Assembly: GCF_044647545.1 (NCBI RefSeq)
Contig: NZ_CP172818.1
Strand: one strand, 5' to 3'
DNA from: Escherichia coli
Lineage (GTDB): Bacteria; Pseudomonadota; Gammaproteobacteria; Enterobacterales; Enterobacteriaceae
Length of the DNA: 64,000 bases
Positions 57,601 through 60,600 of the stretch are shown piece after piece. The first letter of the stretch is position 1; the number at the start of each line of letters is the position of its first letter. The position numbers are program-made.

Positions 57601-60600
57601 AACAGCAGTCACAAGCGGAAGCGCGTGCCAACCTTGCACTTGCAGAAGCGGTAAGCGCCCAGCAAAACGTAGAAACCACTCGCCAGACCGCAGAAGCCGA
57701 TCGTGCTAAACAAGTTGCCCTAATCGCTGCCGCGCAGGATGCAGAAACCAAAGCGGTTGAACTGACCGTGCGGGCGAAAGCAGAGAAAGAAGCCGCAGAG
57801 ATGCAGGCGGCGGCGATCGTTGAGTTAGCCGAAGCAACACGCAAAAAAGGCCTGGCGGAAGCAGAAGCACAACGTGCGCTGAACGACGCTATCAACGTAC
57901 TTTCTGACGAGCAAACCAGCCTTAAATTCAAACTGGCATTATTGCAGGCGCTGCCTGCGGTAATTGAGAAATCCGTGGAACCAATGAAGTCTATCGACGG
58001 CATCAAAATTATTCAGGTCGATGGGCTGAATCGTGGTGGCGCTACGGGTGATGCAAACACGGGTAATGTGGGGGGCGGAAACCTGGCAGAACAAGCGTTA
58101 TCAGCCGCACTCTCTTACCGCACACAGGCACCGCTGATTGACTCCTTGCTCAATGAAATTGGCGTTTCAGGCGGCTCACTGGCGGCATTGACTTCATCCT
58201 TAAGCTCAACAACTCCCGTCGAAGAAAAAGCAGAGTAAACCCTCTTCTATGAATAATCCCTGGCCCAAAAAGCCGGGGATTTTTTATATCTGCGTTCCGC
58301 TAAAAGGTGCAAATGATCAGGCTGTTGCAGCATTTTGCGTGACTGCTCGGGGAAGGCAAAACTGCCTCTGGGAAAGCGTTGCGCGGAGTCCGGCGCTCAT
58401 CAACAATCGGGGAGTCAGCAAGGGGCTGAAACGGGAAAGCCCCTCCCGAGGAAGGGGCCTTACAGAAGGAAAGGGTTATGATGAAGCTCGTCATCATACT
58501 GATTGTGTTGTTACTTGTAAGTTTCGCCACTTATTAACAGCCAATCAGAGGGGGAGAAATCCTCCCTCACCCTTGTTCCTTTACTTGGGGTAGGTTGAAA
58601 AAACAACAGCGTCAATAGGCCTGCCAGGTTCGAAGCGAGATCTGTGAAGCGCTTTCCGGTTAGCCTTTTTTATCCTGTTGGATCTTCTTGATAATGTTAG
58701 TGGTCGAGCAACCGTCTTCAAAGTTGAGCACCAGCACTTCGCCACCATTGGCCCAGACTTCTTTACTCCCGGCAATCTCTTCTGGTTTATAGTCGCCGCC
58801 TTTCACCAGCAGATCTGGCAGGATCCCGGCAATCAAGCGCTGCGGCGTGTCTTCTTCAAACGACACCACCCAGTCGACCGCTTCCAGTGCGCCCAGCACA
58901 ATCATACGCTGTTCGAGCGGGTTAACGGGGCGGGAATCCCCTTTCAGCCGTTTGGTGGAGGCATCGCTGTTGACGGCGACAATCAAACGGTCACCCAGCT
59001 TGCGGGCATTTGCCAGATAAGAGACGTGTCCGGCGTGCAGGATGTCAAAGACGCCATTGGTCATCACCACTTTTTCACCGCGTTTACGCGCTGCCGCTAC
59101 AGCAAACTTCAGTTCCTCTTCGGTCATCACACCAAAGCCGGTATCTGCACGTCCACGTACTGCGTTTTCCAGCTCGATCGGCGAAACCGGGGATGTCCCC
59201 AGTTTGCCGACCACCACACCAGCCGCCGCATTGGCAAAGAAGCAGGCTTCTTCCAGCGAATTACCCGCTGCCAGCGTTGCCGCCAGGACACCAATCACCG
59301 TGTCGCCCGCACCGGTAACGTCATACACTTCCTGCGCCTGGGTTGGCATATGCAGCGGCGCTTTACCCGGTTGCAGCAGCGACATACCCTGTTCGGAACG
59401 GGTCACTAACAGAGCCGAGAGTTCGTAATCGGCAATCAGTTTCATGCCGCGCTCAACAATCTCTTCTTCGGTTTTACATTTACCGACAACAGCTTCAAAT
59501 TCCGAGAGATTCGGCGTTAACAGCGTAGCGCCGCGGTAGCGCTCAAAATCGGTACCTTTTGGATCAATCAGCACCGGAACACCCGCTTTACGCGCCAGTT
59601 GGATCATCTGCTGTACGCTTGCCAGCGCACCTTTGGCGTAGTCAGAAAGCACCAGCGCGCCAATCGAACTCAGCGCCTGATTAATCCGTTCGTGCAGCGG
59701 CTGCGGATCAACACCTTCGAAACCTTCTTCAAAATCCAGACGAATCAGCTGTTGGTTGCGGGAAAGCACCCGTAATTTGGTGATGGTCGGATGCGTCGGT
59801 ACAGAAACGAAGTCGCATTTGACGTTGACGTCGGCCAGAGATTTACTCAGCGCGCGCGCCGCATCGTCAATGCCCGTTAACCCGACCAGGCGTGCATTAG
59901 CACCGAGAGAAGCGATATTCATCGCCACGTTAGCCGCGCCGCCCGGACGTTCTTCGATGGTATTTACTTTAACCACGGGCACCGGCGCTTCCGGCGAGAT
60001 ACGGCTGGTGGGACCGTACCAGTAACGATCCAGCATCACATCACCAACCACCATCACTCCTGCACGTTCAAACTCTGGCAGCGTTACTTTCATTCCTGTC
60101 TCCTGAGAGATTCAAAATTTGCGCGCGATAATACCATACTTCATTCTTCCACCAGCCACTTCTGCCAGCTTGCCCGCACCAGATCACGCTCTGCGGTGAA
60201 GCAATCCTCCGACACATGGCCCGGCAATTCCTGTAATGCCAGATGATGAAGTTCATCGCGCAGCGTAGTGTAAGCACGGGTCAGCACCATCGCTTCCTGC
60301 TCTTCCATAATGTCGTTTTGCGCCAGCAGCTCCAGAATACGCACGTTGTCTGACCAGCGCGTTAACTTCGGTTTTTCATGAGCGTAGCGCAACACCAGAT
60401 ATTGGGTAATAAATTCGATATCGGTAATTCCGCCTTCATCGGCTTTGATATCAAAGCGATCGCGATGTTTATTACCGAGATGAGCGCGCATTTTCTCGCG
60501 CATTTCCCGCACTTCCGTTTGCAGAGTTTTACCTTCTCGCGGCAGCGTCATAATCTCGCGACGCACCGCGTCAAAGTGCGCGGTGAGCTGCGGATCGCCG

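What the first reader, a model, noticed from the sequence alone, without database searches (positions are those of the whole stretch)
58400..58600. Unlisted type I toxin-antitoxin locus (Ibs toxin with Sib antisense RNA) in the yqiK-hldE spacer
A 19-codon ORF at 58478..58537 encodes MMKLVIILIVLLLVSFATY, the signature of Ibs membrane toxins, which are repressed by antisense Sib sRNAs. K-12 carries two tandem copies at this locus; only one clear copy is visible here. It is missed by the ORF track because of its size.
Basis: partly seen in the sequence, partly recalled or inferred. Interest (0 to 1): 0.5.

Follow-up and report, generated by a model that had tools for sequence, protein, structure and literature searches.

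The report
Known Ibs/Sib toxin-antitoxin, single copy
The spacer between yqiK and hldE holds one ordinary copy of the well-known E. coli Ibs toxin / Sib antisense-RNA module, already annotated in near-identical genomes; the only oddity is a private 4-base insertion that splits the antitoxin promoter and may be an assembly error.

Summary
58478..58537(+) encodes MMKLVIILIVLLLVSFATY. Rfam SIB_RNA (RF00113) hits the opposite strand at 58463..58615 with 126.8 bits (gathering score 56, E=1e-26), and this is the only Sib hit in the window. The peptide is 18/19 identical to K-12 IbsD. It is identical to WP_100249717.1, which RefSeq annotates as 'type I toxin-antitoxin system Ibs family toxin' at the same place in FDAARGOS_497. 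K-12 has two tandem 375-bp units here (ibsD, ibsE). The one-unit form is a common natural haplotype: 1325 of 5426 complete E. coli genomes. The locus is therefore already known.

One new point: the window differs from its nearest relatives here only by two indels. A GGGG insertion at 58587..58590 splits the sigma-70 -10 hexamer of sib (TAAAGT becomes TA-CCCC-AAGT). One G is also missing from a G6 run. The insertion is absent from 5426 complete genomes, from the GTDB species representatives, and from 113 copies on 79 metagenome or other-species contigs. It lowers a rough promoter score from 12.9 bits to 4.6 bits, which is background level. The window has other private indel clusters that look like consensus noise, so I favour an artefact. 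If the insertion is real, this is an antitoxin-promoter-down allele next to an intact toxin gene.

The parts
58255..58291 (+). yqiK intrinsic terminator (hairpin plus T-run). In K-12 it is part of the 375-bp unit that is duplicated.
   Evidence: Terminator scan. The same element occurs twice in K-12. Repeat families.
58379..58407 (+). ibs promoter: TTGCGC (58379-58384), 17 nt, AACAAT (58402-58407)
   Evidence: Same hexamers and 17-nt spacing in 86 of 87 matched copies from other contigs (TTGCGC or TTGCGT; one copy has a 15-nt spacer). It lies 7 nt upstream of the position homologous to the ibsD mRNA 5' end used by Han et al. 2010. It scores only 6.6 bits in my rough PWM, so it is weak. Promoter function is inferred by homology.
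58414..58574 (+). ibs mRNA (about 161 nt here, 163 nt for K-12 ibsD), by homology
   Evidence: Han 2010 oligos ERI-T7-ibsD (5' end GTCAGCA...) and ibsD+163 (3' end ...CACCCTT) map to 58414 and 58574.
58466..58475 (+). Shine-Dalgarno region of ibs (AAGGAAAGGG). Together with 58462..58478 it is the target of Sib TRD2.
   Evidence: Sequence. TRD2 is at +99..+115 of Sib in Han 2010. Columns 58462-58466 are variable among 54 distinct units.
58478..58537 (+). ibs toxin ORF, 19 codons plus stop, MMKLVIILIVLLLVSFATY (IbsD-like)
   Evidence: Identical to the annotated WP_100249717.1. GRAVY 2.46.
58508..58532 (+). Approximate target of Sib TRD1, inside the ORF
   Evidence: TRD1 is at +46..+68 of Sib (Han 2010), counted from Sib +1 at 58576. 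It coincides with the most variable ORF columns.
58433..58576 (-). Sib antisense RNA (antitoxin), +1 A at 58576, 3' end about 58433, by homology to SibD
   Evidence: Rfam hit. The SP6-SibD oligo starts ACAAGGGTGAGG, and the SmaI run-off end is ...GGGGCTTTCCC. The TSS context G-2 A-1 A+1 C+2 A+3 comes from PMC12956327. The predicted fold keeps the family architecture.
58436..58461 (-). Sib terminator hairpin, followed by UUUCCCGUUU
   Evidence: RNAfold. Sequence.
58583..58615 (-). sib sigma-70 promoter: -35 TTGACG (58615-58610), 17-nt spacer, then a -10 hexamer TAAAGT that is split here into TA (58592-58591) and AAGT (58586-58583)
   Evidence: Intact TTGACG-17-TA(A/G)AGT is found in K-12 sibD and sibE and in FDAARGOS_497 by the promoter scan, but not in the window. 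The 35-bp minimal promoter and sigma-70 dependence come from PMC12956327.
58587..58590 (.). Private 4-nt insertion (GGGG on +, CCCC on the sib strand) inside the sib -10 hexamer
   Evidence: Alignments. Absent from 5426 complete E. coli genomes. No exact match to the junction in the GTDB representatives or JGI metagenomes. All 113 copies found with a gapped pattern have wild-type spacing.
58549..58553 (.). G5 run where relatives have G6 (a 1-nt deletion). It lies in the ibs 3' UTR and the 5' hairpin of Sib.
   Evidence: 109 of 110 other copies have G6. The predicted Sib fold is unchanged (-57.2 against -57.4 kcal/mol).

Best explanation
This is a single-copy member of the known Ibs/Sib type I toxin-antitoxin family, at the chromosomal site where K-12 has ibsD-sibD and ibsE-sibE. 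The plus strand makes a roughly 160-nt ibs mRNA (58414..58574) from a weak, conserved promoter. That mRNA encodes a 19-residue, very hydrophobic membrane toxin. The minus strand normally makes the roughly 140-nt Sib RNA (58576..58433) constitutively, from a strong sigma-70 promoter. Sib is fully complementary to the ibs ribosome-binding site and ORF. It first contacts the mRNA through two recognition domains, TRD1 in the ORF and TRD2 at the translation-initiation region. It then blocks translation, and the duplex is probably cleaved by RNase III. The sequence, synteny, Rfam membership and conservation of promoters and ends are shown here. Expression, toxicity and repression are inferred from K-12 work. 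The two private indels in this window are most likely consensus or assembly noise (about 60:40 in my judgement), in which case the module is an ordinary working copy. The indels are a 4-nt insertion in the sib -10 box and a G6-to-G5 change.
For: Rfam SIB_RNA 126.8 bits, E=1e-26, full-length model match. The peptide is identical to a RefSeq-annotated Ibs family toxin at the same locus and 18/19 identical to K-12 IbsD. Synteny yqiK-ibs/sib-hldE is the same as in K-12. The one-unit spacer occurs in 1325 of 5426 complete genomes, and in 46 of 79 other contigs (one match per fetched stretch, some stretches incomplete). Transcript ends map by homology to Han 2010 oligos and to the sibD TSS context in PMC12956327. 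Variable columns among 54 distinct units fall on the TRD1 and TRD2 targets, while the promoters stay constant. The mechanism comes from PMC2943612 and PMC4147584. For the noise reading: in 31 kb aligned to FDAARGOS_497 there is one isolated SNP, but three dense private indel patches. One patch has four separate 1-nt deletions within 17 nt. None of the patches is seen in any complete genome.
Against: As written, the window lacks a recognisable sib promoter. The scan finds it in three comparators but not here. My rough PWM drops from 12.9 bits to 4.6 bits, against a background median of 3.2 and 90th percentile of 6.7. The Sib hit scores lowest of 11 copies: 126.8 bits against 138-148. The GGGG insertion is not a homopolymer-length change of the neighbouring sequence, so it is not the most typical kind of sequencing error. 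No expression data exist for this strain.
Confidence: 0.9

Rival explanations
1. The 4-nt insertion is real. This strain then carries an Ibs/Sib module whose antitoxin promoter is crippled while the toxin gene, its Shine-Dalgarno and its promoter are intact. Survival would need low ibs transcription, antisense transcription reading through from hldE on the same strand, a weak residual or internal promoter, or a compensating change elsewhere in the genome.
For: The insertion separates TA from AAGT in the -10 hexamer, and no promoter-like site remains. sibD transcription depends on sigma-70 and its 35-bp minimal promoter. The ibs ORF, SD and promoter are identical to those of FDAARGOS_497. No minus-strand terminator-like site was detected between the hldE stop and sib. 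However, that scan also misses Sib's own terminator. The ibs promoter is weak (6.6 bits).
Against: Sib-deficient cells are reported to be inviable when the cognate ibs is expressed, except for SibA (Han 2010 citing Fozo 2008). The variant is seen in none of 5426 genomes or 113 further copies. It sits beside a homopolymer-length error, and the window has other noisy private patches.
Confidence: 0.33
2. The single unit is a secondary collapse of a K-12-like ibsD/ibsE duplication, arising by recombination between the repeats in vivo or by repeat collapse during assembly. It would not be an original one-copy state.
For: A K-12 derivative (MG1655p) shows such a collapse and keeps ibsE. The units are 85-92% identical over 157-180 nt, enough for recombination.
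Against: The same one-unit, IbsD-like haplotype is present in FDAARGOS_497, whose spacer differs from the window's only by the two indels. The 15 complete genomes listed, which include FDAARGOS_497, Ecol_881, MS6198 and ECONIH1, each hold a single match to the sib promoter region. 1325 of 5426 genomes have one unit. The window unit is a mosaic of D-like, E-like and private positions, not a simple K-12 D/E crossover product.
Confidence: 0.1
3. The 19-codon ORF is a chance ORF and there is no toxin-antitoxin module.
For: Very short ORFs are abundant: 81 ORFs of at least 20 aa overlap 55500..61000.
Against: Rfam E=1e-26, about 94% nucleotide identity to the K-12 locus, an identical annotated protein, and conservation across Escherichia species.
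Confidence: 0.01

Closest known systems
E. coli K-12 ibsD / sibD (first unit of the yqiK-hldE tandem pair)
   Same: Same locus on the yqiK side. The toxin is 18/19 identical (SFATY against SFAAY). The TRD2 target (ACAGAAGG) and the -10 hexamer type (TAAAGT) are D-like. The Sib +1 context and ibs +1 context are the same.
   Different: The unit abuts hldE directly, with the sibE-type upstream flank GGCAGGCCTA before the -35. There are three nucleotide differences in the TRD1 region. It also has the 4-nt insertion in the -10 box and G5 instead of G6.
E. coli K-12 ibsE / sibE (second unit)
   Same: Same right-hand junction with hldE and the same promoter-upstream flank. Many RefSeq one-unit genomes are labelled ibsE.
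   Different: The toxin is only 16/19 identical (I9V, V14L, A17P). The TRD1 and TRD2 target sequences differ, and the -10 is TAGAGT.
WP_100249717.1 'type I toxin-antitoxin system Ibs family toxin' in E. coli FDAARGOS_497 (NZ_CP033850.1)
   Same: Identical peptide, identical one-unit architecture, and a spacer that is identical apart from two indels.
   Different: FDAARGOS_497 has the intact sib promoter (TTGACG-17-TAAAGT) and G6. Its Rfam score is 144.4 bits against 126.8.
Other chromosomal type I toxin-antitoxin modules of E. coli (Ldr/Rdl, Hok/Sok, TisB/IstR-1, ShoB/OhsC)
   Same: A small hydrophobic toxin repressed by an antisense RNA at the level of translation (PMC4147584).
   Different: In Ibs/Sib the antisense RNA covers the whole ORF and the ribosome-binding site. 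There is no sequence or Rfam relationship to those families, since only SIB_RNA hit this stretch.

Membership tests
Sib RNA (Rfam RF00113) | Covariance-model score above the curated gathering score, over the full model | tested here: met
   126.8 bits against 56, model positions 1-147, E=1e-26. Comparators score 138-148 bits.
Sib RNA (Rfam RF00113) | Encoded antisense to, and fully overlapping, an ibs ORF and its ribosome-binding site | tested here: met
   Sib at 58576..58433(-) covers the SD at 58466..58475 and the ORF at 58478..58537.
Sib RNA (Rfam RF00113) | Own sigma-70 promoter (35-bp minimal promoter, +1 A), as in sibD. This is a feature of working members rather than of homology. | tested here: not met
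   The -35 TTGACG and the +1 context are present, but the -10 TAAAGT is split by CCCC. The scan finds no site here but does in K-12 D, K-12 E and FDAARGOS_497. The PWM score is 4.6 bits against 12.9. This may be an assembly artefact.
Sib RNA (Rfam RF00113) | Intrinsic terminator and family secondary structure | tested here: met
   RNAfold gives a closing stem, internal hairpins and an 11-bp terminator hairpin. The result is the same as for the FDAARGOS_497 copy.
Sib RNA (Rfam RF00113) | A transcript of about 140 nt is detected | not testable with these tools
   No expression data are available.
Ibs type I toxins | 18-19 residue, highly hydrophobic peptide similar in sequence to IbsA-E | tested here: met
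   19 aa, GRAVY 2.46, 18/19 identical to IbsD and 16/19 to IbsE. Identical to RefSeq WP_100249717.1, which is named an Ibs family toxin.
Ibs type I toxins | Match to a curated protein profile (Pfam or NCBIfam Ibs model) | not testable with these tools
   The tools refuse proteins shorter than 20 aa.
Ibs type I toxins | Translatable: start codon, SD, and an upstream promoter at the position mapped for ibsD | tested here: met
   AAGGAAAGGG lies 2 nt before the ATG. TTGCGC-17-AACAAT is conserved in 87 copies and lies 7 nt before the homologous ibsD +1.
Ibs type I toxins | Toxic on overexpression, and repressed by the cognate Sib | not testable with these tools
   Known for K-12 members only.
yqiK-hldE ibs/sib locus (K-12 ibsD-sibD / ibsE-sibE) | Synteny between yqiK and hldE | tested here: met
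yqiK-hldE ibs/sib locus (K-12 ibsD-sibD / ibsE-sibE) | Two tandem units as in K-12 | tested here: not met
   There is one Rfam hit in the window. The one-unit form is shared by 1325 of 5426 genomes.

The most novel reading that the evidence does not exclude
The GGGG insertion is genuine, so this strain naturally carries an intact, translatable ibs toxin gene whose cognate Sib antitoxin has lost its promoter. That genotype is reported to be inviable for K-12 sibB-E. The strain would then either tolerate unrepressed chromosomal ibs, or obtain antisense cover from hldE read-through or a residual promoter. Either way it would be a natural test of how essential Sib repression really is.
Probability: 0.3. 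Interest if true: 0.4.

Novelty: already known. Interest (0 to 1): 0.14.

Why it matters
As a locus it matters little. Ibs/Sib has been characterised since 2008, and the identical toxin is already annotated in RefSeq genomes of the same lineage. It does show that ORF tracks with a length cut-off, and annotation pipelines that skip Sib RNAs, miss type I modules. The one point of possible value is the private insertion in the antitoxin's -10 box. If it is verified, it would be a rare natural antitoxin-promoter lesion next to an intact type I toxin. It would bear on whether chromosomal Ibs toxins are really lethal without their Sib. If it is not verified, it flags local consensus errors in this assembly.

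Tried and rejected
I used direct identity to the annotated proteins instead.
- Fozo et al. 2008 (PMC2597788) and the MMBR review (PMC2593563) are not held. A guessed id for Fozo 2010 turned out to be an unrelated paper. The lethality statement is therefore second-hand, via Han 2010.
- I looked for the other sib loci of FDAARGOS_497, to ask whether another Sib could cross-repress. Fetching 520-570 kb of that genome returned only a genomic island, and I abandoned the search. Han 2010 reports that non-cognate Sib RNAs do not repress, except at ibsA.
- I searched for the insertion junction as an exact pattern in genome contigs and metagenome contigs and found nothing. I followed with a gapped-pattern control, which showed that the collections do contain the locus, always with wild-type spacing.
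- The plus-strand Rfam 'Sib' hit (29 bits) and the mir-7 hit (20.9 bits) are below their gathering scores. I treat them as reflections of the palindromic hairpins.
- I considered a chance ORF and rejected it.

Full report
**1. Observation**

The sequence at 58478..58537(+) reads ATGATGAAGCTC...ACTTATTAA and translates to MMKLVIILIVLLLVSFATY*. An AAGGAAAGGG Shine-Dalgarno-like stretch precedes the start codon. A sensitive Rfam scan of 56000..61000 gives SIB_RNA (RF00113) on the minus strand at 58463..58615. The score is 126.8 bits against a gathering score of 56, with E=1e-26 and the whole 147-position model matched. A scan of the whole window at gathering thresholds finds no second Sib. The only other hits are the FMN riboswitch (54909..55057) and ES173 (26608..26671). 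The flanking ORFs are a 553-aa ORF on the plus strand (56577..58238) and a 477-aa ORF on the minus strand (58660..60093). The closest annotated genome names them yqiK and hldE.

**2. What it is**

A megablast of 58000..58900 against 5426 complete E. coli genomes matches 5425 of them.
- The best match is FDAARGOS_497 (NZ_CP033850.1, 99.4% identity). It carries a CDS annotated 'type I toxin-antitoxin system Ibs family toxin' (WP_100249717.1) at the homologous position, and its product is identical to the window peptide.
- K-12 (NEB 5-alpha record) has two CDSs in the same spacer: IbsD, MMKLVIILIVLLLVSFAAY, and IbsE, MMKLVIILVVLLLLSFPTY.
- The two K-12 CDSs sit in two direct repeats 375-377 bp apart that are 85-92% identical.
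- The window peptide is 18/19 identical to IbsD and 16/19 to IbsE.
- In the alignment, the window unit is D-like at the toxin ORF, at the region just upstream of the SD and at the -10 hexamer type. It carries the hldE-side flank that K-12 has only next to sibE. Elsewhere it has a mixture of D-like, E-like and private positions.

**3. One copy is a normal haplotype**

In 1325 of 5426 complete genomes a single place covers at least 80% of the 901-nt query, which indicates a one-unit spacer. In the others the alignment starts at query base 257, the repeat boundary. A gapped DNA pattern found the locus on 75 metagenome contigs and in four other Escherichia species representatives: E. albertii, E. 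whittamii and two unnamed species. Of these, 46 contigs have one copy, 32 have two and one has three. The exact peptide of the window occurs in three metagenome copies. Among contigs with both flanks detected, most one-unit loci carry an IbsE-like toxin, so an IbsD-like single copy is the rarer form. A K-12 derivative (MG1655p) has collapsed to one unit and kept ibsE.

**4. Anatomy, by homology to experimentally defined ends**

The oligonucleotide table of Han et al. 2010 (PMC2943612) fixes the transcript ends.
- ibsD mRNA starts at the G of GTCAGCA, and its modelled 3' end is at ...CACCCTT.
- SibD starts at ACAAGGGTGAGG and ends at ...GGGGCTTTCCC.
- In the window these map to an ibs mRNA at 58414..58574(+) and Sib at 58576..58433(-).
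- Liu et al. 2026 (PMC12956327) independently give the sibD start context G-2 A-1 / A+1 C+2 A+3. They show that the 35 bp upstream suffice as a promoter and that only sigma-70 transcribes sibD in vitro.
- The ibs promoter candidate TTGCGC-17-AACAAT (58379..58407) ends 7 nt before the ibs +1. The same hexamers (TTGCGC or TTGCGT) are present in all 87 other copies that the pattern matched, 86 of them with the 17-nt spacer and one with 15 nt.
- RNAfold of the window Sib gives the closing stem, internal hairpins and a terminator hairpin (58436..58461). This is the same architecture as the FDAARGOS_497 copy.

**5. Mechanism**

The sequence-level features above are shown here. The mechanism itself is inferred from published work on K-12.
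- Sib RNAs are constitutive antisense RNAs of about 140 nt that span the ibs translation-initiation region and ORF.
- Ibs peptides of 18-19 residues are toxic at the membrane when overproduced.
- Repression is specific to the cognate pair. It starts at TRD1 (Sib +46..+68, inside the ORF) and TRD2 (+99..+115, at the initiation region).
- The duplex blocks ribosome binding and is probably processed by RNase III (PMC4147584).
- In an alignment of 54 distinct units (102 copies), the variable columns cluster at 58462..58466 and at 58514..58530 plus the first bases after the stop codon. These are the TRD2 and TRD1 targets. The promoters, SD and hairpins are constant. This agrees with the published discrimination model.

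**6. The unexpected detail**

Within the spacer, the window differs from FDAARGOS_497 in only two ways.
- A GGGG insertion lies at 58587..58590.
- One G is missing from a G6 run at 58549..58553.
- On the sib strand the insertion changes TTGACG-17-TAAAGT to TTGACG-17-TA CCCC AAGT.
- The promoter scan finds the sib promoter in K-12 sibD, K-12 sibE (TAGAGT) and FDAARGOS_497, but not in the window.
- I built a rough PWM from textbook consensus frequencies. It gives 12.9 bits for the wild-type promoter, above the 99th percentile (9.9) of 81-nt segments of this window. The best window alternative scores 4.6 bits, against a background median of 3.2.
- The Rfam score is the lowest of eleven copies: 126.8 bits against 138-148, and 144.4 for FDAARGOS_497.

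The insertion is unique. It is in none of the 5426 complete genomes. The junction has no exact match in the GTDB species representatives or the JGI metagenomes. All 113 copies found with a pattern that allowed 0-11 extra bases have wild-type spacing. The G5 variant occurs in 1 of 110 other copies and does not change the predicted fold.

**7. Real or artefact?**

Over 31 kb of collinear alignment to FDAARGOS_497 there is one isolated SNP. The remaining differences fall in three dense private patches:
- the sib indels;
- one SNP plus four separate 1-nt deletions within 17 nt in the ygiZ-mdaB spacer (42418..42434);
- a 61-nt deletion with adjacent substitutions at the 3' end of ubiK (55408..55419).

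None of these patches is seen in any complete genome. The twelve nearest genomes all give the same score and differ from the window in the same way. Four single-base deletions in 17 nt look like consensus noise rather than mutation. I therefore lean towards an artefact, roughly 60:40, but I cannot decide this without the reads.

If the insertion is real, the consequence is notable. Han 2010, citing Fozo 2008, states that Sib-deficient cells are inviable when the cognate ibs is expressed, except for SibA. Possible escapes, all of them inferences:
- The ibs promoter is weak (6.6 bits).
- Antisense read-through could come from hldE on the same strand. No minus-strand terminator was detected between hldE and sib, though that scan also misses Sib's own terminator.
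- An internal promoter-like site exists at 58521..58493 (7.7 bits). Its product would lack the +1..+8 segment that TRD2 needs.

**8. Comparison and verdict**

The locus passes the tests for the Sib RNA family, the Ibs toxin family and the yqiK-hldE locus. It differs from K-12 in copy number, which is a common polymorphism. As written, it also fails the test for an intact sib promoter. It is already known and already annotated in near-identical genomes. The only lead worth a quick check is the private promoter insertion.

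Noticed in passing
window 55408..55419: A private 61-nt deletion with adjacent substitutions at the 3' end of ubiK (yqiC). It replaces the UbiK C-terminus (...RISELEARNNSVADLQSPPAIPPIDKAE becomes ...[23 protein letters not shown]). No complete E. coli genome has it.
   Followed up: partly
window 42418..42434: In the ygiZ-mdaB spacer there is one SNP plus four separate 1-nt deletions within 17 nt relative to FDAARGOS_497. The best identity in any complete genome is 95%. It looks like local consensus noise.
   Followed up: partly
window 43660..43714 and 51787..51955: Relative to the 12 nearest complete genomes, the window lacks two islands. One is a 7.3-kb siderophore ABC transporter / TonB-receptor island between ygiN and parE. 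The other is a 3.7-kb assT-dsbL-dsbI island between ygiC and ygiD.
   Followed up: no
window 58521..58493 (minus strand): A promoter-like site, CTTACA-17-TATGAT, lies inside the ibs ORF on the sib strand. It is also present in FDAARGOS_497, and as TTAACA-16-TATGAT in K-12 sibE. It could give a short 3' Sib fragment, but this is only a consensus match.
   Followed up: partly
L078 11105..12006 (metagenome contig Ga0209547_100024): Three tandem sib/ibs units, each with a full Rfam Sib hit (142-148 bits). This is one more unit than K-12 has.
   Followed up: partly
L003 (E. coli MG1655p, NZ_CP144891.1) 1738..2154: This K-12 derivative assembly has a single unit (ibsE retained) where K-12 normally has ibsD and ibsE. 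The cause is either recombinational collapse or an assembly collapse.
   Followed up: no
window 54909..55057 (-) and 26608..26671 (+): An FMN riboswitch lies upstream of ribB (120.9 bits), and ES173 sRNA is present (99 bits). Both are ordinary Rfam hits.
   Followed up: no
L001, L002, L003 (RefSeq PGAP annotation): The PGAP records annotate the ibs CDSs, but no Sib ncRNA feature appears in these regions. The antitoxin half of the module is therefore unlisted even in well-annotated genomes.
   Followed up: no
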